Source: Naegleria gruberi
Lineage: Eukaryota
DNA length: 64,000 nt
Direction: 5' to 3' (one strand)
Assembly: GCA_000004985.1 (NCBI GenBank)
Contig: GG738854.1
Shown: piece after piece, positions 5,479 through 63,669 of the stretch
How the letters are laid out: each line of letters begins with the position of its first letter
Position numbering within the stretch: the stretch's first letter is position 1
Translations under genes and position numbers: made by a program
The notes under the pieces: model-generated
Database searches by the model: none
Seen by the model: the letters and a program-made list of their open reading frames with translations, nothing else
Told to the model about the DNA's origin: nothing

Positions 5479-7497
5479 TTATTGCTCACTAATAACCATT
5501 TGTTTCTCAGCCAACTTTCTATAAATTCCATCTTGAACATTCAGTAAATCTGAATGAAGACCAGATTCCTTAATCTCTCCCTTAACAAGCACATAAATAA
5601 CATCACAATTCTGAACAGTTGACAATCTGTGAGCAATGGAAATGGAAGTTCTTCCTTTCATGAGAGTTTCAAGAGCTGCCTGAACAAGAGCTTCTGATTC
5701 CGTATCGAGAGCTGAGGTTGCTTCGTCCAATAGAAGAACTTTGGGATTTTGTAAAAGAGCTCTAGCAATAGCAACACGCTGCTTTTGTCCACCTGAGAGA
5801 GAAACGCCTTTCTCACCAAGTAAGGTGTTATATCCATTTGGAAGATCTACAATGAAATTGTGACAATTGGCAGCTCTTGCAGCTTTTTCAATCTCTTGAT
5901 CTGTTACATTTTCAATACCAACTGCATAAGCAATGTTTTCCCTAATAGAACAGGCAAATAATACTGGTTCCTGAGTCACAATTCCAACTAGTAATTGTTA
6001 TGAATTAACTATTATAGAGTCAACTTACTGTTCTTGTGCAACCATGCAGAATCAATTTCCTTAATATCCACTCCATCAATAAGCACTGATCCTTCTTGTG
6101 GATCATAAAATCTTTCCAACAATCCAACAATTGTACTCTTACCAGATCCGGATGGTCCAACTAGAGCAATCGATTGTCCAACTTCAATATTCAATGAAAA
6201 ATCTTCCAAAACTTTCACATCAGGACGAGAAGGGTAAGAAAATTTAACATTTCTGAATTCAATTTTACCAACATTCTCACCCAAACTCTTTCCTCCAGTT
6301 GTTGGAATGGCTGGTTTTCTTTTAATTACAAGTAGAAGTGTTCTGTGAGAGGCCAATGCTTTGGAAATGTCTGGTAACATGATAAATCCTTGTGCCATTG
6401 AAAAAATACTTTACAATTGGTCAACCTTGATTGTTTGAACAACAACTTACGCAAAAAGCAATAATCCAAATACCTTAACAAGGTCTCCTATTGTGATTAC
6501 TCCATCAATAACCAAATTTCCTCTTTAAATATGTTAAATATAACCAAAACAAGCAAACATATACTTACGCATACCAAAAAGCAAGTGAGCTAGTTCCCCA
6601 CATGATCAAATTCTCAGCACCCATACTCACTCCTTGTGTTAGAGCCTTCAACAAACCATACAAGTGAAGTTTCTTCAATATACTTGCAAATTGCAATTGT
6701 TCCCTCCCTTCAACTCCCATACTTTTCACAGTTTTAAAGGAAGAAACAACCTCATTGGCTTTGGAAGCACTTTTTGAAATGACATTTCCTGATCGGACAG
6801 TCAATACTTCAGTAAACTTTCCCATTACACCTCCAATAACAAGCATAAGTGGAACTGTTGAAATTGAAACAAGTGACATTTGCCAACTGCTTACAAAAGC
6901 AAGAACTAGGCCAATAATGATGGTTGTCAAATGTTGCATGAGTGTAGATAGCTTGTTTGTCCATGCGTCTTGAATTTTAGAGATGTCATCACTCAATGGA
7001 AGAGTCAAAGCTCCTGTTTTCTTAATATCAAAGAATGCAACATCTTGATTAGTCAATTGGTTGAAATAACTTTTTCTCAAAGTGATTCCAATTCTTTCAT
7101 TGGCCCAACTCAAGAAAAATTGAGCTGTAAAGCTTGCCACCATACTACCAATTGCAACATAGGTAAACTTTAAGGAAATATCAGAGATGGCAGCTCTCAT
7201 GACATCAGTGGAAGGCATTACTCCATTGACAGGTTGGAAAATGTTGATTAAATCTCCAAATATAAATTGGAAGATTAACATAATAACACCATTTCCCATC
7301 GATCCAAGCATTCCTAACAAGATTAGAAACCATGTCCATCCAAACAACTTGAAAATTCTAAAGTGATCAAAGAAATAAAGTTTAGGCTCCCTTTCGTCTT
7401 TGATTTCTTCATTTTGTGGTTTTTCTGGAGCAGAGTTTGGCAAAGTATCCATGGTGGAGGTACTTGCTCCTTCTTTTTGATTTGAATTAATTGACAT
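5479..7497 (-). CDS. ABC transporter, ABCB-type half-transporter (TMD-NBD), three coding blocks plus a 75-nt internal exon
   Basis: Walker [14 protein letters not shown] signature [14 protein letters not shown] and Walker [12 protein letters not shown] in ORFs 6012-6398 and 5479-5979. The TMD is in ORF 6565-7497. Introns have GTAAGT donors (41 nt between 5979 and 6012). A mini-exon encoding [25 protein letters not shown] lies between 6399 and 6564, flanked by ~48- and ~42-nt introns. Confidence 0.85.
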
Positions 7498-14421: not shown

Positions 14422-16855
14422 TTATAAGAGACCTAATTTAACATCACTTGAATGAACTGCCACAATTGTGAATTTTCTTTCATCACCTGCATTGTAAGTG
14501 GATGGTAGAATGTAGTAAGCAATATTGGCCTGAAGTGAAATTGTGAGAGCTGCAACTCGATTGAATCCCCAAGAATTGGTTTTTGCACATTGACATGCTG
14601 ATCTCATCTCACCCTTAAAAACATGGAACCCAACACCGGCCAGTTTTCCATCCTTTTCTTCCTGACATAATAAGATATCCACTTCACAATCCTTAGCTGC
14701 TGAAATCATGACTTTTGGATTTTTCCAAAATGTTTCCTTATTATTTGGACATCCACCTGCTGTTTCTTTTGTCCATTCACATTCTAAATACTTTCTCTTG
14801 AAAATAGAATCTGTGAGAGGAATCAAGTCGACAGTTACTGGTGGACCTGGAGGTTTTTGGATGAAGGCCTTGGTGGTAAACTTCATCTCTATACCAGTTT
14901 TGAATGTTGTTGGAATCAGGACATAATTCTTATTTGTTTCCAGATCGAATGCATCATCACTAATATTGTCCGCTCTGTTAATGAATTGAAGAGGTTTGGC
15001 TGCCTCCTTATTTTCATAAATTGGTTTTGTTGGGTTCTTGTCGTTAGCCTGTAATATGTACATTCCAGTAAACTCTGGTTGATCAGAAACTTGCTCCACT
15101 CCTACTCTGACTCGCAATTTTTTACTCTCGTTACTCTTCAAAGTCAGTAAGAATTGTGGGTTCTTTATCCACCTCCAAGAATTCATGCACCCACCAGCAG
15201 ATAAAAAGTCCCATTGACTTTCCTTAGCAACGTAATGATAATATTCCTCTTCACCAGGCAATAATTCAACATTGAATCCCTTACAGCTTGATCGAATAAA
15301 TGTTCTAATAACAAAAGATCCGACCTTATCCTTAAAGTACACTGATGGACAAATCAAATAGTTTCCAGCTGCTAATTGATTATATTTCATTGAATTTTCT
15401 CTACTATATTCAAATGTACTCTTAAACATAATACTAGCTGGTTTGACAAAGAAGCATCTATCCTTATTTTCATCAGATTTCATTACATGGAAACCGATAG
15501 GAAAGTCCTTGTCCTTAACATCTGACAAGTACTTTGATGAATGTAGTGTCAAACTTATTATTACATCTGAAGTTTCTTGAAGAGTGAAAGTGAATTGAGG
15601 TCCTCTCCTAGAAACTTTAGTATTAGCAGTGAACAATCCTTCACCATTCCAATTTCCTAACCTAGTTTGGCATTTCCATTCAACAACAGCTGGTGTATCT
15701 GGATTCACAGGGTAATTAATTAGTCTACAAACATCCAATGTAGTGAAATATTTACAAAAATCCTCAATGGTCATATGGAAAGTTCCGTCATCTGCAAAAG
15801 AAGGCTTTACAACCTCTGCAACTTTAGGAGAGTTTTTCCATTCCGCTGCATTATCAGCCCAAGCACCTTTCCATTCTCCATTGGCCCCTATTTTCATTAA
15901 GATCTAAAATAATTCAAACAACTTACAAGGATTTTTCAATCTAATTAATTTTACATCTGCAACTTCAAAACAGTCAATAACGGCATATGCATGTCCTGCC
16001 ATAAGGCCTGTACTTCCAATCCCAGTTTCTCCTGTTGTTGATGATGAACTAGCTCCAATAAGAGTAGCTTGCTGAGTTCTCTTGCTGACATAGTTCCACA
16101 CATCCAAAACAGTTTTCTTTTTCATATCCATTACTTCAGAGAAACCTCCTGTCATGTCAACAAGCGCATTTCTAGTAAATCCTCCTTCAAGACTTGCATA
16201 AGATCCCATAAATTTTGCATAGGCTTTTTCTAACAACGGAACCCAAAATTCATTTGGGTTGGTGCTTTTAGCAAATACCAAGTTCCCTTTCAGATCACAA
16301 GGTAATCTGTCATCAATTGATACATTTTTCCATTGACCATCCCTAAAGAATCTAAATGAATATTTTCCTCTTTCCTTAGTTTCTGGTTTTGAAACAATCA
16401 ACTGTTCAATTCTGTGTCTTGAATCTGCAAGAATACATAATGACCCAATAAACCAACTATTAAATTATTAAATTAGTACTTCAATAATAGGCAAAAAAGA
16501 GTACTTACCAATCACCTAGACCTCCTTGTTGTACATCAAGAACATTTACATCATCAACGAATAATTCTGGATTTACAGCACCATTCACCTGGTGAGGTCG
16601 GAGCCATTTCTTTATCCTAGCAGCACCTGGAGGTGGTTTTTGATTTGGTTTATAAACGCTTATTGTCTCAGCTGGAAATTCCAAATCCTCAAAAGGTTCT
16701 GTTGCTGTATCAATCTCTGTTTTAAATGTATCTAGTGGAGGAGCCTCGGGAATCTCATGATCTTTGGGCTATTATCATATGATAAAGTAACAATAACAAT
16801 AGAAATTATTTAATAAAAACTACTAAGCGAGTGGGCAACATACATTGAATGGCAT
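14422..16855 (-). CDS. Calpain-type cysteine protease with C2-like domain III (4 exons)
   Basis: ATG at 16855 (MPFN) and a GTATGT intron of ~75 nt. The active-site Cys lies in QGGLGDCWFIGSLCILAD, split by a 52-nt GTAAGT intron. His is in GLMAGHAYAV. The LIRLKNPWGANGEWKGAW junction is created by a 39-nt GTAAGT...AATAG intron at ~15898-15936. A ~490-aa C-terminal domain III-like region follows. Confidence 0.85.
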
Positions 16856-29739: not shown

Positions 29740-32700
29740 TTATTGGTATTCGATTCTTTGTCTGAATTCTTTGATACTTTCAAATATTTCTTCGAAAGAT
29801 GGTCTCTCAGTGTCAAGAGCAGACCAGCATACCTTCATTAAACTGATATAATCAACAACTACAGAGGCAATATATGTTTTTGGATGTTTGGTCAGGATGG
29901 TATCAGTAAATTTCTCGAATGCTTTTGGATCTTCGGTATTGAAAGGTACTACTGGTCTTAAACCATTAATAACCTTTAAGGCAATGGTAAATAAGTTAAA
30001 ATCTTGATTCTCATATGGTTTACACTCAAAAAGAAGTTCATACATCATTATTGCAAATGAAAACACATCACATTTTTCAGTATATCTTTCTTCTTGAAGA
30101 CATTCTGGGGCAATAAATTCCATTGTACCACAGTGCCCAGTCATTGTTGCTTGAACGTCAGCAACTCTTGAAATACCAAAATCTCCAATCTTGGCAGTTC
30201 CCCCTCTGTTAATCAAGACGTTTTGAGGTTTGAGATCACGGTGAAGGCTAATCGATTTGTGAGTTAAAAAGAGATTGAAATTACTTACATTCCCTTATAA
30301 TGTAAATACATCATTCCTCTACAAATGTCCAACAAAATGTCCAATTTTTGCTCTATAAGGAACTTTCCTTTAAGCTTTTTAGTGTAATGATCTAGTGATC
30401 CATTTTCCATAAATTCAGTAATGATGAATTGATGTTTAAGATCTCCACTAGTACTAATACAAACTCCTATAAATGACAATACATTTGGATGTCTTAAAGA
30501 TTTAAGTAAAAATACTTCTTTTTGGAATAACTCTTGGTCTTCGGTGTACCCATCTGATAATTTCATTTTCTTGATGGCAACCTCTGTTCCCTTAAACCTT
30601 CCCTTGAAAACAATAGCAAATCCACCTTCAGATAATCTTTCTGTGAATTCCAAATCTTCAATTTTAATCATAAAGCTGTCATCATAGTCTACAGAATTTG
30701 AAATATTAAATTCACTCTTGAGAAGGGTATCTTCAAATTGCTTTTCAGCATTTTGTTTCTTGTAGAGTGCCTTTCTAGTTTTGAAAAATACAAATGTCAA
30801 AGTAAATGAGAGAATCAACAATCCCAAACCAGTTCCAAATAATGTCCATCTGAAAACGTCTTGAAATATTTCTGGATAGACAAGGTAGATAAATGTATAT
30901 GAAGAGGTAATATCTGCAACCACGAGATTGTCTCCTACTTTAGAGATTTTATAGTTGGAATTACTTGTGTCTCCTCTCTTTACTTGAACAGAGGTTTCAA
31001 CATATAAATGTTTTGCCCAGCCTCCAACTACAAGCTTACTCAGCTCACCACTACTTGAAATTGTGTAGAATACATTATTACTAGTATTTTCTGCATAAAG
31101 ACTCACATAATAGTTGTCATTAGTATAGTAATTATCAGAATCTGTTTGTGCAGAACAATTATTTTCACTTCAAAAGTTAGAATATTAATAATCTCATATA
31201 CTTACTGGGCCTTAAGAAGAACTAAAGTATTTCTATCTAATATTATCAATTTACAACCACAAGCAATTACCAAGTAATTGTGCAACCAAATGTGTCTAGT
31301 CAAATCAAAGTCACAACCTAAGAAATCATTTTTCGTATCATGGAAAGTGCTTACAACTTTGAAATCATTTTGAAAATCTCTTCCAACAAGCCTAGTACCA
31401 TTGTCATCTATTTCTAATGCAAGAAGAGTGTTATACAAAATATCTACTCCAAACATTGTACTGCTTCTACTCGAGTGTTCACCAAAGTCAAATTGGTTTC
31501 CTTCTTTCCAAGTTATTGCTTGATCTTGTACTGTTATAAATAACATTTTCACTTTTTGTAAATCTGAATTATCATTACAAACAGCTGTGACAATAAACAC
31601 ATCCTTGGTTGAGTCATATTTCATTGAATATGGAATAAAACAAGAATCTGATTCTTCATATTTTTGTGAGGCAACCAGTTTCAAAAAAGTAGAGTCAAAC
31701 TTGTAAAAGGTAAAGTTATCATCCAAAATATAATAATAATCTAATGAAATATGATAACCAATTATAGTTCTAGAACGTTGAGGAACATATAGATCATAAA
31801 CTCTCTTAAAAGTGCCATCAACAATCTGAAGAAGTGAAATGGTCTTTTGTCCAATGGCAAACAATGAATGCTTGTCATGTCCATGGTGTAATTCGCTGAC
31901 CATAAAAAGGTCATCTACTTGATATGATGTAGTAAATGGAGAGTCTTCTAAAAAAAGGTTGGTATCTCTCGATTTGGTTCTGGTGTGAACAATGCTATTC
32001 TTGAATGACCCATAGACAACGTCTGCCTGTGGCGTAGATTGTATTGAACTGTTATACCAAATGAAGGTGCATACTGTGAATATACTATTTTGGAAAGAGT
32101 TAGCACCCAGTATAACCATATTATTGCTCAACACTAAACCAGTAGCATCAGTGTAGAGCGAAGAAGTAGTTTCAAAACGCAAGAAATAATGAAGATCTCC
32201 TGCCTTAGTTAAACTTGAAGTAGAGTGAATGGTCTGAAGTCTTGAGGACCTTGAAAATTTTACTCCACTACCCAACCTTGTATCATTCAAATACTGATCT
32301 AGAATCAAATATTCCATTGGACCAACTTGGGCATCATAGGTCGCACGTTTAGCGAAAAAAATAGATAATTTTGTATCATCAAGGTCATTCAATGATGTAT
32401 AGTCAAGAAATCTTACTTCAGCTACATTCTTGCTATCAAAATTATGGGTATATGACCTGATTATATTGAATGATGTGAGGTCAATTTGATGAAATGTAGA
32501 TGAAGAGGTCAATAAAACAATGTAATCTCTTCTAATGATGTGGTATGCTGAAGAAGAAAAGACAGAGTCGAATGTTTGAGGGAGGGTTAAATTTTTGAGA
32601 GGTGTAAAATTAATCGTCAGATTTCCTCCATGACTAATCTGATAAATTCTCAATTGAGCAGAGACTTTGTAATCTGTGGTATCTATCGTTTCATACACTA

Positions 32701-33562
32701 ACAACATGTTAATTCATTGATGAAACAAATAGAACAACTTACTACTGAAAAATAGGTTCTTGTGAGGAACAAAGAAGCAATATCTGGAACAATATTGGGA
32801 ATAGCTGACTCCACTCAAAAGATTAATTGGTGATTCTGAAATAGAAGATGGTTGGTAAACTAAAATATCAAACATTCTGTGAACAGAAAAAGCTTTTTTA
32901 GCAGGAGCTGTCAAGGCGAAGGAAGAAAGCGTAAGTCTCTTTGAAACATCAGTCATAAATAATACGCAATTTGATGTCAAATAGTCTGGACAAGACAGTG
33001 CACCTACAACAGAAGATGATTGACCATCCTTATTATCCATAGGATAGAGAGCCACCCAACTTTGTCTCTTTTGTGTTATTGATTCCACAAAACTTGCACT
33101 ATCAATACTCAAATAAGATTCTCCAAAATTACTCAAAAAATCAGGTTGTCTAATTGACAAGGAAATTAAAACAGCCAATAACATTCCTCCAACCAAAAGT
33201 ATTATCAATATAGCCTCTATTATCAAACATATTTTAATTGATTCATTGATAATTTCATCTCTTTTCATTTGATCCCCCTGTGTTATCTTGTCGAATGTTG
33301 TTTTTACATTTGTTGTAACATTTTTAAAATAATTTGTTATTAATCCATTACTAGATCGTTGCGTTGTTACTATATTATTTGTATCAATCGATTCATTTGT
33401 AGTTCCAATCAAAGGCTCGGAAAGTAAATTATTATTTGTTTTTTTTCTCTTCTTGGTACTCGCTATTGATGAACCTGTATTTTCATAGGATGTATAATAT
33501 GAGGTTGTGAAGGATGATGGATGTAATTCTTGTTGTTGTTGATGATTATCCAAACTCGTCAT
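29740..33562 (-). CDS. Receptor-like Ser/Thr (TKL-type) protein kinase with an N-terminal cytoplasmic tail, two TM segments and a large ectodomain (4 exons)
   Basis: ORFs 32714-33586, 31202-32707, 30285-31106 and 29740-30216 are joined by ~41-49-nt GTAAGT introns at ~32708-32752, ~31141-31189 and ~30219-30259. The kinase has VAIKK, the HRDLKPQNVLI catalytic loop (split by the last intron), GDFGISR and APE. TM1 is ICLIIEAILIILLVGGMLLAVLISL. TM2 is LFGTGLGLLILSFTLTFVFF. First ATG at 33562. Confidence 0.7.
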
Positions 33563-57363: not shown

Positions 57364-57510
57364 TTTTTCTCTGCTGGTAAATCCTTATTAAAATGAAAAT
57401 ATGAACAATTGTATAATATGTGTTTTTTTTCTTTTACAACCATAAAGTTCATAAGTTCATCTCTCCATAAAATTAGAGCTCTAATCTTATCAAGTTTTAC
57501 AATAAAAAAA

Positions 57511-58668
57511 ATGTCTCAACTGGATGATGCTGAACCACTCCCTTCCCTTGTGATTGATTTCGGAAGGGGCTATATTAAATATAATTCCACATTTTCAGAT
57601 AATATTCCATCCTCTAATTCTTCCTCTGTTGTTTGTAATGAAACTAGGAATGTTATTGCAATACAAAAAGGAAATCCCGATGAGGAAGTAAAATATATGA
57701 TTGATATTGATTTGAGAAAAGGTCATCGTTATGCAAAGGTTTTTTATCCAATGAAGGAGGGGCATATTAAGGATTGGAATGTGTTTGAAAAGATGATTGA
57801 TTGTTTGTCGAGAGATTCAAGGGTTTATATGGCAGAGACAAATACATTGATGGGCTTTGGACCTCACATGACAGAGAATGAAATGGTTAAGGTGGCCAGT
57901 GTAATGTTTGAGAATTTTAACACTCCAGAATTTGGATTAGTGTTGGATGATTGTATGGCAGCAGTTGGATCTGATACAATTTATGGAACCATGTTGGATT
58001 GTGGATATTCCTCAACAAGAGCAGTTCCAATATTTGATGGAGTTCCTTTGATGGAGTCAATTACTGAACTGAATTTTGGAGGTAACAATTTGATAATGCA
58101 TTTCCTTGATTTATTAAAACAGAGTGCATTATACACTATTAATGCAGATTACATTGGGGATAGAGAATATTTTGGACCATATTGTTTGGAACGAAACGGT
58201 TACGTGCCACTAGATTTTGAAAAGGAGCTGAAGAAAGTAAAAATCAACAAGATCGAGGATTTACCTGATCTCAGATCAGCCCCTCTCAATAATTCTGTAT
58301 TCATATGTACGCAAGCTCTTTTTGATCCTTCACTGGTTGGCTTGGAAGACCCAAGTATGCACAATTTGATTATGCAGTCAATTTCCAAGTGTGATGAGCA
58401 AAAACAAGCAGCTCTATCAAATGTTGTTCCATGTGGTGGTATGTCCAATTTGAAAGGTTTATTAGCAAGATTGGACAAGGAGCTTAAAATTGTTTCAAAA
58501 GATAGCTCCTTCGTTCCTACTCTTTCAGAAATGAAAAACAGAACCAAACTCCCATTTATTGGAGGGTCTATTATTGTAAATTCTAGGACATTATTTGACA
58601 AATTTTCTGTAAAACTTGAAGATTACAATGAATATGGTGAATCCATTGTAAAAAGAAAATTTCTATAA
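57511..58668 (+). CDS. Actin-related protein (Arp family, divergent)
   Basis: ATG at 57511 (the track start at 57409 is TTG). Actin-fold phosphate-1 region LVIDFGRGYIKY and LVLDDCMAAVGS...LDCGYSSTRAVPIFDG. Length is ~385 aa. Subfamily not resolved. Confidence 0.65.
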   Translation: MSQLDDAEPLPSLVIDFGRGYIKYNSTFSDNIPSSNSSSVVCNETRNVIAIQKGNPDEEVKYMIDIDLRKGHRYAKVFYPMKEGHIKDWNVFEKMIDCLSRDSRVYMAETNTLMGFGPHMTENEMVKVASVMFENFNTPEFGLVLDDCMAAVGSDTIYGTMLDCGYSSTRAVPIFDGVPLMESITELNFGGNNLIMHFLDLLKQSALYTINADYIGDREYFGPYCLERNGYVPLDFEKELKKVKINKIEDLPDLRSAPLNNSVFICTQALFDPSLVGLEDPSMHNLIMQSISKCDEQKQAALSNVVPCGGMSNLKGLLARLDKELKIVSKDSSFVPTLSEMKNRTKLPFIGGSIIVNSRTLFDKFSVKLEDYNEYGESIVKRKFL

Positions 58669-58698: not shown

Positions 58699-59959
58699 CT
58701 AATCTATTTTGTTCACTTTTAGAGAGTCATCATTGTAAAACTTTAAAATAACTAGAATATCAAACAATAGCAATGACACACAACCAGAAAAACCAAGTGG
58801 ACCTACCATCAGTGGTGAATACCACTTTCTTTCAGTTTCCAAGAAAAGAAATGGTAGAAATCTTCCCAACCCATTGAATAATCCATGCAGTATACCTGGA
58901 ATTATTCCACAATATTTCATTTTGGACCTCTCTGCAAAATAACAAAGGAGTGGGGAAAGAAGCATACATCCCAGTGTCATTGCAATGATTCCAATTTTCC
59001 CATTTTCCTTTCCATAGTTGTGTCCCATTAGAATCATTGGACTATGCCAAATTCCATGTATAAATCCAATTAGAAGAGATTTTCTAATGAAATCAATTGT
59101 CCTTTCCATCTTGGATTGATTCTCTTGCGGATAGTAGAGTCTCTTCCAAAGAAATTCTCTCCATCCCTTCTCTTCTCCATATCCAAACAAACCGTTAATC
59201 CCAATTACTGAAAAGGTCTGTAAAATAGTAATTGAAATAAGTGGAATAGTGTTAACCCCATCAAGATTATCAAATAGATCGTTCAGTTGATTTCTTTGAC
59301 TTTCGTCTGGTCCAAATCCTTCAGCCATTTCTTTCACATATTCTCTAAAGTAATTAGATGTTGAACTGAATTGAAAACCTGGTGTAATCTTATAATAGTA
59401 ATAAATTAATTATCATAAATCTCTTTTAACTTACTGTAAATCCAATGAGTGATGAACACATAGGTAGTACAGTAAATGTCAATATTCCAATCCAAAAGGT
59501 TGAATTCATTAACAAATTCATCATAAAATTCTTGATGGAAATCAACCAATTCCACATCCTATTCAGCAGTGTTATCTTTGATTCCAATACTCTTCCGCAA
59601 TTATCATCATCATTCATTGTAGTATTATAATTAGTAGTAGTAAGAAGTTCTTCATCCTTTCTTTCAATCCAATAGGCAGTCACTCCTGGCACCATCATAC
59701 AAATAGCAAAGGCAATTAATTTTACAATTTCAAATGTATAATGATGATCCGATAGTAATAATAAATCACCACTCATTTGTAATATTGAAGTGATGAAATA
59801 GGTTACGGAAAATGTTCGGCATGTGAATTTTACTATTTGTTGTTGATGGTGGTATTGTTGTTGTTCTATAAAGAAGTAGTTGTGATGGTTAATAAACCAC
59901 TCGGAAAGTAAACTCAAGCCAAAACAAGCATACACCAGTGGGTTGGATAATTCAATCAT
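58699..59959 (-). CDS. CPBP-family intramembrane metalloprotease (type II CAAX prenyl protease/Rce1-like), 2 exons
   Basis: ATG at 59959. Exon 1 ends ...LIGFT at a GTAAGT donor. The ~46-nt intron ends ATAAG. Exon 2 begins ITPGFQFSS... The protein carries EEKGWREF (EExxxR), FIHGIWH (FxxxH) and HNYGKEN (HxxxN-like) motifs in a multi-TM context. Confidence 0.6.
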
Positions 59960-60257
59960 TTTTTATTTATTGTAAGAAATTATAATAGTGTAATAGTGTA
60001 AATAATGCATAATTTCTTAATCAGTAAATTCAAATATTCATAATGCATATTTTCTGATCTTGTTGCAATTAAAATTTATAACAAAACACATTGAAATTAA
60101 CAATGTACTTGTGGATTTGTATCAAAATATATTGAGTTACAAGTGGCCCTTTTTTTCAATATAGCAAATGGAGGAGGTTATGAACTCAAGAGGAATGTGT
60201 TTGTAAAACAATTATTGTAATCTTGAACTCGATCAAATAGAGTTTCATTAAAAAAAA

Positions 60258-61554
60258 ATGTGTCTACTACTTGAGGGGTCACTTTTTCTCCGAGAAAATA
60301 AATTAGATAGGAATACAATTATGTATATTTTCGAGTTTTTATCGCACAATGAAGTGACATCATTATCATCATTAATTTTCTCAGGATCTGAAGAAATTGT
60401 CAACGAATTTTACAATGAAACTCTAATTGATCATTTGAAATTTGGTAAATGTTTGGTAATTTATTCGTGGGATAATAAATTTTGGAAAGAAGAAATGGTG
60501 AAAATTAGTAGCCGATTCAATATTGCTATGAATACAGTTATGGAACTGGTTTCACTTTCTAACAAAATGGAAGAAATTAATTTTGAAGAAAATTGTAATT
60601 ATAGAGCATTCTTTGTGCAGCAAATTTGGAACAGAATTGATATGAAACATTGGAAATTTATTCAACACAAGAGATTTCTTCGGAAAATTTATCTTCTTTC
60701 AATTCCTTTGAAAATTAGTGAAATTGCGCAACGAAATGTCAAATTTACAAATGAGGAATGTGAAGTCATGATTAGGAAGAGATTGGAACATGAGCTTTTT
60801 ATAGAAGAGTCACATTTAGAGCGAATGATTTCTAATAAGGAGAGAATACTAACAAAATATATCTATTTGAAATGGGTTTCGGTTGGATCTTCTGAAGTTG
60901 GAAAAACGAGTATATTTATTAAGGCGGTCATTGATAAATTCTTTGAATATCCAGTGAGAGTAATGCATGGTTCTCATAAGTATGTGTATGTACCAACCAG
61001 GCAAGAACTGATGTTGGATAGTAGAAGTTATTGTGAGATTAGTTATTGGGATACAGGTTAGTTCAATATTAATATCAAGTTTCTAACTTTCACTAGTTGG
61101 TTCTGATGAATTTGATGAATCTCGACCTCAATCTTATCATGGAACAGATGTGGTGTTTACCATGACCTATTCAATAACGGATTTCTCAACACTTGAAGAA
61201 ATTGCTGAAAAATTCATGTGGGAATGCACTCAATCCTCTCCTAAAAGTGCATTTATACTAGTTTCAACAAAAAATGATCTAAGGGACGCTTATTACTGGG
61301 CTAGTTTATTCGATTCTTCCATTGAGGAACCGATTTCAGAAGAAGATGGAATTGAATTTGCAAAATCAATAGGAGCAATTTCACACATTGCAACAAGTTC
61401 GAAAACAGGCAAGGGAGTTAAAAACATTGAAAGGAAACTCTTCTTACTTTACCATTTTTATTTGAATTTTAAACAAAGAAACGAAGTCCAAACCAAATCA
61501 AATTGGGAATCCTCAAGAACAAGGTTTGATTTTTCAGTAATGCACCATCCTTAA
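60258..61554 (+). CDS. Atypical Rho-like small GTPase with ~190-aa N-terminal extension, no CAAX, 2 exons
   Basis: ATG at 60258. Exon 1 ends W-D-T-(G) at 61056. A GTTAGT...CACTAG intron spans 61057-61096 (TCTAAC branch). Exon 2 reads VGSDEFDESRPQSYHGTDVVF... G1 GSSEVGKTS, G2 YVPT, G3 WDTVGSD (Ala and Gln replaced), G4 TKND, G5 SSK. Ends ...SVMHHP without a prenylation box. Confidence 0.65.
61057..61096 (+). other. Spliceosomal intron (40 nt) in the Rho-like GTPase gene
   Basis: Donor G|GTTAGT, branch TCTAAC, acceptor CACTAG|. Joins WDT-(G/V)GSDEF across the conserved Rho switch II. Confidence 0.7.
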
Positions 61555-61602
61555 TAAAATGCACGTGTTGAGAAAGAACAGTATGTAAAAATAATTGATT
61601 AT

Positions 61603-62997
61603 TTATTTCTTCTTCAAACCTTCAGAGAAAGCATTGACCATGGCAACCTTCTTCTTGTTATGATAAGTTTGTTGAGTTGAACTGCTTTCAGCAGCAGAAG
61701 ATCTTTGTTGCATGTTAGCAGACCAATAGTTATTCATCATCTTACTACCAACATTTGAATAGACAGTTCTGTCAACCATATTATTGTTACAATCATTCAA
61801 ATCCTTAATTAAACCTAAACAGAATTCATCATTGGCACTAACAGAAGCCTTAACCTTTTCAATAGCTTGAGTTAACAAATTTCTTGCTTGTTCTAACTTG
61901 TTTTGATCAGCCAAATTCTTAGCTTGTTCCAAAGCTTCACCAGATTCAACTCTGTTTCTTTGTACATCCAATTGATAATTGGCATCCTTCTTATTTGGTT
62001 CAACAGTTGTATTTCTATGAATGATAATTTCAAATCCAACTGCTTCATTTTCAGTATCTACAATATTGAAATAGAAGAGTGAAACCTTTGCAAGTTCTTG
62101 ATCAAGGAGTGGACCATTGAGAGCAGGAACTGATAACACAAAGACAACATCCTTCTTTTCCTCGGAATAAATATCACCAACATTAACCTCGCATCCTAAA
62201 CCATTTGGTAAATCTTCTTTTCTATAAGTTGTGAAAACCTTCTTCAATTTAACATTAGCATTTGGTTCAATTTTAACTTTGATATTTTGACCAACAACTG
62301 AAATCAAACCACCAATAACGTTACCAAATGCCTTTGGAATGTCATCAGTTGTTTGAAGGAAGTAATATAAACCATTACCAGCTTGAGAAATTGAAGTTAA
62401 CATATTAGCATCTGTATCAGTACCAAATCCAAATGTGAAAACTGTCAGGTTAGTTCTAATTTCTTCATGAATCATTGTTGTCATCTTTTTAACAATTTCA
62501 TTAGTATTTGTAATACCTTCATTAGCTAAACCATCAGTAAATAATAGAAGAGAAGTAACTTCATTGGCATTTGTTCTTTGACCAATAAGTCTCAAACCTT
62601 CAAATAAAGCACCAGATAAATTTGTACAACTTCCTGCTCTGATATTGGAAACAACTTGTTTGGCCTTTGATCTACCACTTTCGTTCATATTAGTAAATTG
62701 AAGGCTAGTTGAAATATTACTATCAAATTCAACGAGAGCAATTCTATCGGTTGGCTTTAATTGATCAAACATGAATGCTAATGTTGATTTGACCATTTCA
62801 ATTTTACTGCCTGCCATTGATCCTGATTTGTCAACTACACAAATAAGATCAATTCCCTTTCTTTCTTTTCTTTCATCGGCTTCAAATTCTGGAGCCTGTA
62901 ACGTTGCCATACAATATAAATCTGTTTCCTTTTGATATGGTAAATTGATGTATTCACAATTACCAGTAAAGACAATTTTAGTATTGGAAGAAGACAT
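61603..62997 (-). CDS. von Willebrand factor type A (vWA) domain protein
   Basis: ATG at 62997. The MIDAS-type motif DLICVVDKSGSM (DxSxS) and downstream T/D ligands are present. Intron-less 464-aa ORF. Confidence 0.7.
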   Translation of the reverse strand: MSSSNTKIVFTGNCEYINLPYQKETDLYCMATLQAPEFEADERKERKGIDLICVVDKSGSMAGSKIEMVKSTLAFMFDQLKPTDRIALVEFDSNISTSLQFTNMNESGRSKAKQVVSNIRAGSCTNLSGALFEGLRLIGQRTNANEVTSLLLFTDGLANEGITNTNEIVKKMTTMIHEEIRTNLTVFTFGFGTDTDANMLTSISQAGNGLYYFLQTTDDIPKAFGNVIGGLISVVGQNIKVKIEPNANVKLKKVFTTYRKEDLPNGLGCEVNVGDIYSEEKKDVVFVLSVPALNGPLLDQELAKVSLFYFNIVDTENEAVGFEIIIHRNTTVEPNKKDANYQLDVQRNRVESGEALEQAKNLADQNKLEQARNLLTQAIEKVKASVSANDEFCLGLIKDLNDCNNNMVDRTVYSNVGSKMMNNYWSANMQQRSSAAESSSTQQTYHNKKKVAMVNAFSEGLKKK

Positions 62998-63669
62998 TTT
63001 GTTGTTAATAATTTACACGAGTGATTCTATTGATCAATAAGTTTGATTTTTTTTATGTTTTATTTGTTCCAAACGAAGTTAGGGCTATTTATAAGATGTT
63101 GCTCATTTCCCGTTAGCAGAACAAGGAACTATGAATTCTTTGAAGGTGAACTTTTATGTATGAGTTCACTGTGGGAATGATAACGAGGTTACACTTTTTC
63201 ACAGCATCATTCTATACACGTCAGCTGAGATAAGATAAAATCAAGCATCCGATACACCCCACCAATATCTATCTGAATTTAAAATCTTGAAGTTTATTTG
63301 ATGAAAAAATATTCAACAAAAATCCTTTGTGACCAAATGTGATTTTTGGAGTGGTTTCACGTCATGAAAGCACCAAACTTTCACATCATCATCTCAACAT
63401 CATCTATATAGTATTAAAAATAGTAATTTTTATTGGTGGATTACCATCATGAAATTGGAAGTTATCTTTCGTGATGGAAAAATTTAGAAAAATTAAAGTT
63501 GATTTACTATCATGTTGTCCATCAATGTAGTGATAGTAAATTTGTGGATAATTAATTTTTAGTAATTGGTGATTACATTTGAATCTACAGTCGGAAAACT
63601 GTAATGTAAGAAATGGTAACTGGTAGGATAAGAAGGTACATAGCATGATAGCCACCTCAGAATGTAATG

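What the first reader, a model, noticed from the sequence alone, without database searches (positions are those of the whole stretch)
60258..61554. Atypical Rho-like GTPase fused to an N-terminal domain, with catalytic Gln and switch II Ala substituted and no prenylation signal
The G3 motif reads WDTVGSD instead of WDTAGQE. Loss of the catalytic glutamine is the hallmark of GTPase-deficient, constitutively GTP-bound Rho members (Rnd/RhoH/RhoBTB-like). The ~190-aa N-terminal extension begins with a possible F-box-like stretch (IMYIFEFLSHNEVTSL), and there is no C-terminal CAAX. The switch II region is split by a 40-nt intron.
Basis: seen in the sequence. Interest (0 to 1): 0.5.

Follow-up and report, generated by a model that had tools for sequence, protein, structure and literature searches.

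The report
Atypical Naegleria Rho GTPase, F-box-like extension
This is a real two-exon Naegleria gruberi gene for a Rho-type GTPase that has lost its catalytic residues and its lipid anchor and carries a roughly 200-residue N-terminal extension with a degenerate F-box-like motif; the gene and its general architecture are already catalogued in the literature, so it is a moderately interesting family member, not a new kind of thing.

Summary
Exons 60258-61056 and 61097-61554, split by a 40-nt GT..AG intron, encode a 418-aa protein. Residues 204-380 are a Rho/Rac/Cdc42-type G domain (Pfam Ras 4e-20; best solved relatives RhoA and Cdc42). It has G12->S, T35->R, A59->V, Q61->S (WDTVGSDE), intact G1/G4/G5 motifs, a Rho insert and no C-terminal cysteine.

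The window is Naegleria gruberi contig ACER01000104.1. Herman et al. 2021 (Table S8) already list this gene as a newly created 'Rac' model. Their model uses a donor 24 nt upstream, which deletes CEISYWDT.

The fusion is real, because the N-terminal region and the P-loop share one ORF. It recurs in two N. gruberi and two N. lovaniensis paralogues. All lack G12 and Q61, and the three complete paralogue sequences end in CxxQ.

The extension has no Pfam F-box hit. Profile-profile comparison aligns residues 13-40 with F-box helices 1-2 (probability 65-72%, P 3-6e-5).

Most likely it is a non-hydrolysing, non-prenylated Rho-derived module. It may act as an SCF adaptor, as proposed for Naegleria F-box-GTPase fusions. 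That function is inferred, not shown.

The parts
60258..61554 (+). Whole gene: 2 exons, 418 codons plus TAA. It is identical to the N. gruberi gene on ACER01000104.1 listed as 'Rac' in Herman et al. 2021, Table S8.
60258..61056 (+). Exon 1. It encodes residues 1-266 plus the first base of codon 267. It carries the N-terminal extension together with G1, switch I and strand beta3 of the G domain in a single ORF.
   Evidence: An in-frame stop lies upstream at 60249.
61057..61096 (+). 40-nt phase-1 intron (GTTAGT...TCTAAC...TAG) that splits the Val codon of the DTVG motif in switch II.
   Evidence: Rho alignments cross the junction without a gap. The intron is identical in a 98.3%-identical metagenome contig. 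Other GTAAGT introns of 39-45 nt in the window join open frames.
61033..61038 (+). Alternative in-frame donor (GTGAGA) used by the published gene model. It gives a 64-nt intron that deletes CEISYWDT and changes V to F.
   Evidence: Translation with this donor matches the Table S8 sequence at 399 of 399 residues. It scores 62.0 bits on Pfam Ras against 74.3 for the 40-nt model.
61097..61554 (+). Exon 2. It encodes the rest of switch II, G4, the Rho insert, G5 and the C-terminal tail, and ends with the TAA stop.
60258..60866 (+). N-terminal extension of about 203 residues, predicted to be all-helical. It is found only in Naegleria and in two metagenome fragments of unidentified source.
   Evidence: An exhaustive HMMER search of 1.84 billion representative proteins gave only 4 hits. 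There was no Pfam hit and no solved-structure sequence hit. The AF2 model has low confidence but is helical throughout.
60294..60377 (+). F-box-like motif, residues 13-40 (ENKLDRNTIMYIFEFLSHNEVTSLSSLI). It corresponds to the 'LP' position plus helices 1 and 2 of an F-box.
   Evidence: hhalign probability 65-72%, P 3-6e-5, and 0 of 300 column shuffles reached the observed score. Fbx4 aligns in the same register at a non-significant E=1.1. The motif is below Pfam thresholds.
60441..60485 (+). Signature conserved across the subfamily: FGxCLxIYSWxDxFW, residues 62-76.
   Evidence: Alignments A2 and A5. G63, W71 and W76 are invariant.
60594..60620 (+). N[YF]RxxF motif (CNYRAFFVQ, residues 113-121). 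It is shared with the N-terminal regions of other N. gruberi F-box-Rac proteins.
   Evidence: hhalign (P 0.004 for this region alone; 0 of 150 shuffles reached the score).
60885..60911 (+). G1 / P-loop, GSSEVGKTS, residues 210-218. The GxxxxGK[ST] pattern is intact. The Gly12 equivalent is Ser.
60945..60974 (+). Degenerate switch I, EYPVRVMHGS, residues 230-239. The Thr35 equivalent is Arg (Lys in paralogue P0001).
   Evidence: Alignment A6 and the BLASTP alignment.
61047..61110 (+). G3 / switch II, WDTVGSDE, residues 264-271, spanning the intron. DxxG is kept, with A59->V and Q61->S.
61267..61278 (+). G4 motif TKND, residues 324-327. It fits the canonical [NT]KxD pattern.
61279..61329 (+). 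Rho insert region (LRDAYYWASLFDSSIEE, residues 328-344). It contains a Trp that is conserved across the subfamily.
   Evidence: It aligns without a gap to the RhoA insert. See also alignment A6.
61396..61404 (+). G5 motif SSK, residues 367-369 (canonical SAK).
61435..61551 (+). C-terminal tail with no cysteine, no CAAX box and no polybasic run. Three paralogues end in K/R-rich sequence plus CxxQ.
   Evidence: One synonymous difference from the related strain lies inside the tail, at 61512.

Best explanation
**What it is.** The gene encodes a lineage-specific, atypical member of the very large Naegleria Rho/Rac family. It has an all-helical N-terminal extension of about 200 residues that opens with a degenerate F-box-like motif. 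A Rho-type G domain follows.

**Shown by sequence.**
- The G domain keeps everything needed to bind guanine nucleotide: P-loop GxxxxGKT, DxxG, TKND and SSK.
- It has lost the residues needed to hydrolyse GTP and to sense the gamma-phosphate: Gly12->Ser, Thr35->Arg and Gln61->Ser.
- It has no C-terminal cysteine.

**Inferred.**
- The protein binds nucleotide but does not cycle as a GTPase.
- It does not use the canonical GAP, GDI or effector surfaces, because switch I is rewritten and there is no prenyl group.
- It is soluble rather than membrane-anchored.

**Most likely role (inference, roughly one chance in three).** It is the role Herman et al. proposed for Naegleria F-box-GTPase fusions in general. 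The F-box-like helices would dock on Skp1 of an SCF ubiquitin ligase, and the locked Rho-like domain would act as the substrate-recognition or regulatory module. This would be a functional analogue of RhoBTB-Cul3.

**Origin.** The copy belongs to a Naegleria-restricted subfamily with at least 3 genes in N. gruberi and at least 2 in N. lovaniensis. The catalytic Gly and Gln were lost in the common ancestor, and individual copies have decayed further.
For: **Gene model and organism**
- Gene structure and translation.
- Translation with the 61033 donor matches the sequence printed for ACER01000104.1** in Table S8 of PMC8296547 at 399 of 399 residues.

**Rho family identity**
- Pfam Ras E=4e-20.
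- The best 60 solved-structure hits are all RhoA or Cdc42, and the alignment is ungapped through the Rho insert.
- In a BLASTP panel, RhoA, Cdc42 and Rac1 score 85-95 bits. Ras and Rab score 28-35 bits, and N. gruberi RhoBTB scores 30 bits.

**Motif substitutions**
- Alignment A6.
- Loss of G12 and Q61 defines the GTPase-deficient Rnd and RhoH proteins (PMC8305018).

**The fusion is real and conserved**
- One ORF carries both the extension and the P-loop.
- Paralogue XP_002676342.1 is 42% identical over 90% of the length.
- XP_002669751.1* has the same N-terminal region.
- N. lovaniensis P0004 and P0005 are single-exon genes with the same architecture.

**Evidence against a dead gene**
- All 3 coding differences from a 98.3%-identical strain are synonymous, whereas the intergenic flanks carry indels.

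**F-box-like motif**
- hhalign against an F-box alignment gives probability 65-72% and P 3-6e-5, in the LP-helix1-helix2 register. None of 300 column shuffles reached the observed score.
- There is a second, collinear motif match (N[YF]R) to Pfam-positive N. gruberi F-box-Rac proteins.
Against: - No curated F-box model is matched by any of the seven subfamily members, even at E<=10.
- The F-box Pro of 'LP' is Asp or Asn here, and the third helix with its conserved Trp does not align.
- Against five canonical F-boxes alone, the hhalign probability is only 12%.
- Both AlphaFold models are low-confidence (pLDDT 38 and 50), and Foldseek found nothing. There is therefore no structural support.
- Nucleotide binding, lack of hydrolysis, Skp1 binding and expression are all untested.
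- Loss of the CAAX box that three paralogues retain, together with a rewritten switch I, would also fit a copy drifting towards loss of function.
- The published expert model uses a different donor, which removes the DxxG aspartate.
Confidence: 0.6

Rival explanations
1. The N-terminal extension is not an F-box. It is a novel Naegleria-specific helical domain, for example for dimerisation, autoinhibition or scaffolding. The protein would then act simply as a locked, Rnd/RhoH-like Rho signalling protein or decoy with no link to ubiquitination.
For: - No Pfam F-box hit in any member.
- No significant solved-structure sequence hit.
- The Pro of the LP pair and the Trp of helix 3 are absent.
- A long predicted helix at residues 129-159 would suit a coiled coil.
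- The table of Herman et al. flags no additional domain for this gene or for its two N. gruberi paralogues.
Against: - Profile-profile similarity to the F-box falls in the correct register and lies far above the shuffled controls.
- A second collinear motif is shared with F-box-Rac proteins that do pass the Pfam threshold.
- Some N. gruberi F-boxes that pass the Pfam threshold also have LN instead of LP (XP_002671699.1*).
Confidence: 0.3
2. The gene is a decaying paralogue in a birth-and-death family. The ORF is still open but functionally unconstrained, or on its way to becoming a pseudogene.
For: - It has lost the CAAX box that three relatives keep.
- G12, T35 and Q61 are all substituted.
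- The original genome annotation missed the gene (marked ** as a newly created model).
- Herman et al. describe recent birth-and-death evolution with disrupted genes, but for divergent Naegleria Rab-like clades, not for this subfamily.
- No one-to-one N. fowleri orthologue is listed.
Against: - The 418 codons are intact, as are the splice signals.
- The nucleotide-binding motifs G1, DxxG, G4 and G5 are all preserved.
- All 3 differences from a second strain are synonymous, one of them in the tail. Under neutrality this has a probability of roughly 0.02. The sample is small.
- Herman et al. did not flag the gene as a pseudogene.
Confidence: 0.15
3. The published 64-nt intron (donor at 61033) is the real or dominant splice. 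The mature protein would then lack strand beta3 and the DxxG aspartate, and would be a pseudoGTPase that cannot bind nucleotide.
For: - GTGAGA is an acceptable donor, and the product stays in frame.
- It is the expert-curated model in Table S8.
Against: - The 24 nt in question encode CEISYWDT, which aligns residue for residue with LALWDT of RhoA and with FGFWDT and VAYWDT of the paralogues.
- Pfam Ras drops from 74.3 to 62.0 bits, and Roc from 40.4 to 20.9 bits.
- Five other candidate introns in this window that join open frames all begin GTAAGT; four are 39-45 nt and one is 75 nt. GTTAGT is one mismatch from GTAAGT, and GTGAGA is two.
Confidence: 0.15
4. The N-terminal ORF and the GTPase exon are separate genes, or the fusion is a gene-model artefact.
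For: None was found. Only the prokaryote-style gene caller on the metagenome contig called exon 2 by itself.
Against: - The P-loop, switch I and beta3 of the G domain lie in the same uninterrupted ORF as the extension.
- Four paralogues have the same architecture, two of them as intron-less single ORFs.
Confidence: 0.02

Closest known systems
Naegleria F-box-Rho/Rac fusion proteins (Herman et al. 2021, BMC Biol 19:142, Supplementary Material 4 and Table S8)
   Same: Same genus and same layout: an N-terminal extension of about 130-200 residues followed by a Rho/Rac-type G domain. The extensions share an L[PND]xxhxxxIhxFL start and an N[YF]R motif. Several members also have degenerate G3 motifs, for example WDLPCRDG and WDLGCHPG. 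This very gene is listed there as 'Rac' on ACER01000104.1**.
   Different: - The table flags no F-box for this gene or its two N. gruberi paralogues, and none of them reaches Pfam thresholds.
- This subfamily has its own conserved FGxCLxIYSWxDxFW block.
- This copy lacks the CxxQ/CxxL prenylation box present in the complete F-box-Rac sequences read from Table S8.
- The published model of this gene uses a different donor site.
Rnd1-3 and RhoH (metazoan GTPase-deficient atypical Rho proteins)
   Same: Rho-family G domain with substitutions at both Gly12 and Gln61 (Rac1 numbering). These substitutions are the basis for calling Rnd and RhoH GTPase-deficient (PMC8305018).
   Different: - There is no evidence of common descent, because the subfamily is restricted to Naegleria.
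- Here the switch I Thr35 is also lost.
- Rnd proteins are farnesylated at a CAAX box, whereas this protein has none.
- Rnd and RhoH have no extension of about 200 residues (from general knowledge).
RhoBTB (Rho domain plus tandem BTB domains; a Cul3 adaptor)
   Same: Conceptually parallel: an atypical Rho domain fused to a module that recruits a cullin-RING ligase. In RhoBTB the BTB domains bind Cul3. Here the F-box would bind Skp1-Cul1.
   Different: - No BTB domain is present.
- The Rho domain is C-terminal here, not N-terminal as in RhoBTB.
- N. gruberi has its own RhoBTB genes, and the G domain of one of them scores only 30 bits against this protein.
TbFRP (FYVE-F-box-GTPase of Euglenozoa; PMC3593210)
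   Same: Another lineage-specific protein in the Discoba that places an F-box upstream of a C-terminal small-GTPase domain. [quoted passage not shown]
   Different: - The TbFRP G domain is closest to Rab18, not to Rho.
- TbFRP has a FYVE domain.
- Searches of the N. gruberi genome found no TbFRP orthologue.

Membership tests
Rho family of the Ras superfamily | Ras-type G domain with recognisable G1-G5 motifs | tested here: met
   Pfam Ras scores 72-74 bits against a cut-off of 21.6. GSSEVGKT, DTVG, TKND and SSK were located.
Rho family of the Ras superfamily | Closer to Rho/Rac/Cdc42 than to Ras, Rab or other branches | tested here: met
   The best 60 solved-structure hits are all RhoA or Cdc42. 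In the BLASTP panel, Rho, Rac and Cdc42 score 67-95 bits and Ras and Rab score 28-35 bits.
Rho family of the Ras superfamily | Rho insert between G4 and G5 | tested here: met
   Residues 328-344 align without a gap to the RhoA insert and to the Rac1 and RhoA inserts in A6. This was judged by sequence only. No confident structure is available.
Rho family of the Ras superfamily | C-terminal CAAX prenylation box (typical of the family, not universal) | tested here: not met
   There is no Cys in the last 60 residues. The only CxxX-stop in the 3' region, CKNN in the UTR, is reached by no in-frame GT..AG splice on inspection. Paralogues end in CSVQ, CSKQ and CDVQ.
Classical switching Rho GTPase | Gly12, Thr35 and Gln61 (Rac1 numbering) present | tested here: not met
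   The equivalents are Ser, Arg and Ser.
Rnd/RhoH-type GTPase-deficient Rho | Substitutions at both Gly12 and Gln61 | tested here: met
   The definition comes from PMC8305018.
Rnd/RhoH-type GTPase-deficient Rho | Orthology with metazoan Rnd or RhoH | not tested
   No phylogeny was built. The N-terminal domain and the subfamily signatures were found only in Naegleria and in two metagenome fragments of unidentified source, so convergence is the likely explanation.
Rnd/RhoH-type GTPase-deficient Rho | Constitutive GTP binding with no hydrolysis | not testable with these tools
   This needs biochemistry on recombinant protein.
RhoBTB | Tandem BTB domains C-terminal to the Rho domain | tested here: not met
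   No BTB hit at E<=10. The Rho domain is C-terminal. The N. gruberi RhoBTB G domain scores only 30 bits.
Miro | Two GTPase domains flanking EF-hands, plus a C-terminal transmembrane anchor | tested here: not met
   There is a single G domain and no EF-hand hit.
F-box proteins | Match to a curated F-box model (PF00646 or PF12937) above threshold | tested here: not met
   None of the seven subfamily N-terminal regions gave a hit at E<=10. As a positive control, the N. gruberi F-box-Rac proteins XP_002671699.1* and XP_002676320.1* pass, at 21.2 and 26.2 bits.
F-box proteins | Profile-level similarity to the F-box in the correct register | tested here: inconclusive
   hhalign gives probability 65-72% and P 3-6e-5 over window residues 12/13-40, which correspond to LP, helix 1 and helix 2. 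None of 300 shuffles reached the score. Helix 3 does not align. Against canonical F-boxes alone, the probability is 12%. Fbx4 aligns in register at E=1.1.
F-box proteins | Binding to Skp1 | not testable with these tools
   This needs a pull-down, a yeast two-hybrid assay or a confident complex model. Both monomer models were low-confidence.
Naegleria F-box-Rac fusions (Herman et al. 2021) | Naegleria gene with an N-terminal extension followed by a Rho/Rac G domain, catalogued in Table S8 | tested here: met
   The sequence matches the ACER01000104.1** 'Rac' entry at 399 of 399 residues, apart from the donor choice.
Naegleria F-box-Rac fusions (Herman et al. 2021) | Extension homologous to that of the F-box-flagged members | tested here: inconclusive
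   hhalign of A5 against A4 gives probability 31% and P 5e-4. The match is collinear over the F-box and the N[YF]R motif. The part after the F-box alone gives P 0.004, and 0 of 150 shuffles reached the score.

The most novel reading that the evidence does not exclude
A Naegleria-restricted subfamily of catalytically dead, Rho-derived 'pseudo-switches' carries a cryptic F-box and serves as substrate receptors of SCF ubiquitin ligases. This would be an independent, convergent reinvention of the RhoBTB-Cul3 principle. Prenylated (CxxQ) copies would work at membranes, and this CAAX-less copy would work in the cytosol. The locked Rho surface would capture Rho regulators or effectors for degradation.
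Probability: 0.25. Interest if true: 0.55.

Novelty: new member of a known kind. Interest (0 to 1): 0.3.

Why it matters
F-box-GTPase fusions link two major regulatory systems, small-GTPase signalling and cullin-RING ubiquitination. Outside RhoBTB they are essentially unstudied experimentally.

This analysis adds four points to the published catalogue entry:
1. A better-supported splice keeps the DxxG motif. This changes the prediction from a protein that cannot bind nucleotide to one that binds but cannot hydrolyse.
2. The gene belongs to a five-gene Naegleria subfamily that lost Gly12 and Gln61 ancestrally and shows stepwise decay of the G motifs.
3. The unflagged N-terminal extension is probably a cryptic F-box related to those of the flagged F-box-Rac proteins.
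4. This copy alone has lost the prenylation box.

These points are useful for annotating Naegleria and for choosing candidates to test GTPase-dependent ubiquitination. They do not open a new field.

Tried and rejected
**Structure prediction.**
- AlphaFold2 on the full-length protein with a 6-sequence alignment gave pLDDT 38.
- The N-terminal domain alone gave pLDDT 49.8.
- Both are too poor to use.
- Foldseek of the N-terminal model against the PDB gave only E>3 noise.

**Homologue searches.**
- The search for homologous proteins with the full protein or the N-terminal profile returned only one relative each.
- The third search was swamped by canonical Rho proteins.
- Two scans of JGI metagenome contigs found no related locus, and one alignment was too divergent to be used.
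- The N. gruberi paralogue P0001 is not in the contig index, so I could not check whether its intron position is conserved.

**Synteny.** Synteny with the N. lovaniensis loci was tested and is absent. No orthology is claimed.

**Hidden CAAX exon.**
- The 3' UTR contains KCTC* and CKNN* in other frames.
- Neither is reachable by a plausible in-frame GT..AG intron. The only matching donor/acceptor pair would make a 14-nt intron.
- The second strain has a 2-nt indel in this stretch.
- This idea was rejected.

**Alternative splice restoring DTAGQE.** No frame near the junction encodes it. Rejected.

**Other weak hits.** A profile hit of the N-terminal region to ribosomal protein eS31 (E=0.008) and SAVED-domain hits were treated as chance. 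They are short and are not supported by any other test.

**RhoBTB and Miro readings.** Both were rejected on domain content.
Full report
**1. The observation**

Reading 59500-62500 and translating the proposed exons confirms the finding.
- An ATG at 60258 follows an in-frame TAA at 60249. It opens an ORF that runs to 61056.
- The next 40 nt, 61057-61096, form an intron (GTTAGTTCAATATTAATATCAAGTTTCTAACTTTCACTAG). It starts with GT, ends with AG, and carries a TCTAAC branch-like element.
- The intron interrupts a Val codon (G|TT). Exon 2 runs from 61097 to the TAA at 61552-61554.
- The product is 418 aa and reads ...SYWDTVGSDEFDESRP... across the junction. Without splicing, the frame ends at WDTG*.

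The G domain is not a chance match.
- Pfam Ras scores 72 bits (E=4e-20) over residues 205-377.
- The 60 best solved-structure matches are all RhoA or Cdc42 (E of about 1e-21 to 1e-19). Their alignments cross the splice junction and the Rho insert without a gap.

**2. Where the window comes from, and prior knowledge of the gene**

The only close relative in the 5.8-billion-protein search was a Naegleria gruberi 'rho family small GTPase', XP_002676342.1 (P0001). It is 42% identical over 90% of the length, N-terminal region included.

The N. fowleri genome paper (Herman et al. 2021, PMC8296547) re-annotated all Ras-superfamily genes of N. gruberi. Its Table S8 contains the window protein itself. 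The entry is annotated 'Rac', with ID ACER01000104.1** (a newly created gene model). The pseudogene and additional-domain columns are blank.

Translating the window with a donor at 61033 (GTGAGA, 64-nt intron) reproduces their printed sequence at 399 of 399 residues. The window is therefore N. gruberi, and the gene is already catalogued. XP_002676342.1 is a paralogue, not an orthologue.

The same supplement makes two relevant statements.
- N. gruberi has more than 80 Rho-family genes.
[quoted passage not shown] The authors suggest GTPase-dependent ubiquitination.

**3. Which splice is right**

Both are in frame. The published model removes CEISYWDT and changes V to F. That deletes strand beta3 and the invariant Asp of DxxG.

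Three lines of evidence favour the 40-nt intron.
1. The 24 nt encode residues that align one for one with LALWDT of RhoA and with FGFWDT and VAYWDT of the paralogues.
2. The Pfam Ras score is 74.3 bits for the 40-nt model against 62.0, and the Roc score is 40.4 against 20.9.
3. Five other candidate introns in this window that join open frames all begin GTAAGT. Four are 39-45 nt long and one is 75 nt. GTTAGT is one mismatch from GTAAGT, and GTGAGA is two.

Only transcript data can settle the question.

**4. Anatomy of the G domain**

Alignment with human Rac1 and RhoA (sequences from memory, consistent with the alignments) and with two canonical N. gruberi Rac proteins from Table S8 gives the following picture (coordinates).

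| Element | Window protein | Canonical form | Note |
|---|---|---|---|
| G1 / P-loop | GSSEVGKT | GDGAVGKT | pattern intact; Gly12->Ser |
| Switch I | EYPVRVMHGS | YVPTVFDNY | Thr35->Arg |
| G3 | DTVGS | DTAGQ | Ala59->Val, Gln61->Ser |
| G4 | TKND | [NT]KxD | canonical |
| G5 | SSK | SAK | conservative change |

- The Rho insert is present.
- The subfamily has an insertion of about 10 residues in the beta2-beta3 hairpin.
- In a BLASTP panel, the domain scores 85-95 bits against RhoA, Cdc42 and Rac1. It scores 28-35 bits against Ras and Rab, and 30 bits against an N. gruberi RhoBTB.

Loss of Gly12 and Gln61 is what defines the GTPase-deficient Rnd and RhoH proteins (PMC8305018). Here the Mg2+ and gamma-phosphate-sensing Thr of switch I is also gone. 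The protein probably binds nucleotide but neither hydrolyses it nor switches in the classical way.

**5. The C-terminus**

The tail (residues 380-418) has no cysteine. I looked for a hidden CAAX exon. The only CxxX-stop in the 3' region is CKNN in the UTR. It cannot be reached by a plausible in-frame intron, and the related strain has a 2-nt indel in that stretch.

By contrast, the three paralogues with complete C-termini end in a K/R-rich run followed by CxxQ: KRKCSVQ, NKLCSKQ and KKSCDVQ. Loss of the prenylation box is therefore specific to this copy.

**6. The subfamily**

An exhaustive HMMER search of 1.84 billion representative proteins with the N-terminal profile found only four proteins.
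- Two are metagenome fragments of unidentified source.
- Two are N. lovaniensis proteins (P0004 and P0005). Both are single-exon genes with the same layout of extension plus Rho domain.

Table S8 adds a third N. gruberi member, XP_002669751.1*. No member has Gly12 or Gln61.

| Member | P-loop | G3 | Other features |
|---|---|---|---|
| XP_002669751.1* | GATFVGKT | WDTAGGED | switch I TPTVFD (Thr kept) |
| P0001 | GMN-VGKT | WDTVGNEE | P-loop one residue short |
| P0005 | GQSGIGKT | WDTCEREE | Gly of DxxG lost |
| P0004 | GKSQVGKT | FDISSKES | Gly of DxxG lost; LKKE in place of NKxD |

The catalytic residues were therefore lost ancestrally, and individual copies have decayed to different degrees.

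I found no synteny with the N. lovaniensis loci. No one-to-one N. fowleri orthologue is listed in the table.

A metagenome contig (ERZ929261) is 98.3% identical to 60953-63387. All three differences inside this gene are synonymous, and its intron is identical, while the intergenic DNA carries indels. This is modest evidence for purifying selection.

**7. The N-terminal extension**

It is predicted to be entirely helical, but both AlphaFold runs were low-confidence (pLDDT 38 and 50). Foldseek returned nothing.

No subfamily member hits Pfam F-box or F-box-like, even at E<=10. As a positive control, two N. gruberi F-box-Rac proteins from Table S8 pass the Pfam threshold.

Profile-profile comparison is more sensitive.
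- The first 64 or so columns of the subfamily were compared with an alignment of seven N. gruberi F-box GTPases plus five canonical F-boxes. The result was probability 65% and P=5.9e-5.
- With the paper-derived sequences alone, the result was probability 72% and P=3.3e-5.
- Window residues 13-40 aligned from the 'LP' position through helix 2.
- None of 300 column shuffles came near the observed score (maximum 15.9 against 24.8), and the reversed alignment scored nothing.
- Against the five canonical F-boxes alone, the same register was found at only 12% probability (P=0.0026). Helix 3 never aligned.
- A PDB profile search placed Fbx4 in the same register at a non-significant E=1.1.

The whole extension aligns collinearly with the extensions of the F-box-Rac proteins. 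The match includes a second motif, N[YF]RxxF (probability 31%, P=5e-4). This second motif stands on its own above the shuffled controls.

I conclude that the extension probably descends from the same F-box-containing extension as the flagged Naegleria F-box-Rac proteins. The F-box is degenerate, and its function is unproven.

**8. How it most likely works**

*Shown by sequence*
- It is a single polypeptide that combines the extension with a Rho-type G domain.
- The G domain has intact nucleotide-binding motifs but lacks Gly12, Thr35 and Gln61.
- There is no lipid-anchor signal.

*Inferred*
- It binds nucleotide without hydrolysing it.
- It does not use canonical GAP, GDI or effector contacts.
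- It is soluble.

*Inferred with lower confidence (about one in three)*
- The F-box-like helices bind Skp1, and the locked Rho domain acts as the recognition module of an SCF ligase.
- This would be analogous to RhoBTB-Cul3 and matches the suggestion of Herman et al.

*Rivals*
- A novel helical domain with no ubiquitin link (0.3).
- A decaying paralogue (0.15).
- The published splice as the true isoform, giving a pseudoGTPase that cannot bind nucleotide (0.15).
- Two separate genes, which the sequence itself excludes.

**9. Novelty and verdict**

The gene is catalogued, and the class of Naegleria F-box-Rho fusions has been described. I therefore file this as a new member of a known kind, with four refinements.
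1. A better-supported splice.
2. Recognition of a five-gene catalytically dead subfamily.
3. A cryptic F-box.
4. Copy-specific loss of CAAX.

It is neither an artefact nor a surprise for a specialist in protist GTPases. Interest: 0.3.

Noticed in passing
window 61033-61096 versus 61057-61096: The published gene model for this locus (Herman et al. 2021, Table S8, ACER01000104.1**) uses a donor 24 nt upstream of the one favoured here. This deletes CEISYWDT, including the DxxG aspartate. The catalogue entry probably needs correcting, unless the two donors are used alternatively.
   Followed up: yes
window 58699-59337 (-) and 59426-59959 (-): The upstream neighbour on the minus strand encodes a membrane protease of the Rce1-like / CPBP family. 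Its PF02517 score of 22.4 bits sits exactly at the cut-off, and it has EExxxR, FxxxH and HxxxN-type motifs. The adjacent 177-aa hydrophobic ORF may be its 5' exon. A CAAX-protease-family gene next to a Rho gene that has lost its CAAX is probably coincidence.
   Followed up: partly
window 61603-62997 (-): This convergent downstream gene encodes a 464-aa protein with a VWA domain and a CPSF6-like RSLD region. Its stop codon lies only 48 nt from the stop of the Rho gene, so the two 3' UTRs must overlap or be very short.
   Followed up: partly
window 57409-58668 (+): ORF with an actin-family domain (PF00022, E=9e-44, partial coverage). It is probably an actin-related protein.
   Followed up: no
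L002 about 5930-6000 (N. lovaniensis PYSW02000009.1, upstream of P0005): The annotated start of XP_044552815.1 cuts off the F-box-like motif. NRTLDTGSLLHILQFFS is encoded in frame directly upstream, but it is preceded by a stop. A nearby ATG (MTETER) lies in another frame. This suggests a frameshift, an assembly error or a mis-annotated 5' end.
   Followed up: partly
P0001 (N. gruberi XP_002676342.1), P-loop: This paralogue's P-loop reads GMNVGKT. It is one residue shorter than GxxxxGK[ST], which should impair phosphate binding. N. lovaniensis P0004 has also lost the Gly of DxxG and the Asp of NKxD. The subfamily shows a graded series from near-canonical G motifs to pseudoGTPase.
   Followed up: partly
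L001 (ENA ERZ929261 contig) versus window 60953-63387: An environmental metagenome contig is 98.3% identical to the window. It has only synonymous changes in the two genes examined, but several indels in the intergenic stretch 63282-63339. A close N. gruberi-like strain is therefore present in that sample.
   Followed up: partly
window, e.g. 30248-30288 (-), 32698-32742 (-), 5988-6028 (-), 15888-15926 (-): Very short introns of 39-45 nt beginning GTAAGT appear to be the norm in this window. Removing each of them joins 480 nt of open frame. One of them lies just upstream of the sequence encoding a protein-kinase HRDLKPQN catalytic loop.
   Followed up: partly
P0064, P0069, P0091 (JGI and Logan metagenome proteins): Metagenome proteins combine Kelch repeats, an F-box or BTB domain, and a Rho-type G domain. 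They mirror the 'Kelch, F-box / Rac' architectures listed for N. gruberi. Heterolobosean-like F-box-GTPase fusions therefore occur in environmental data.
   Followed up: no
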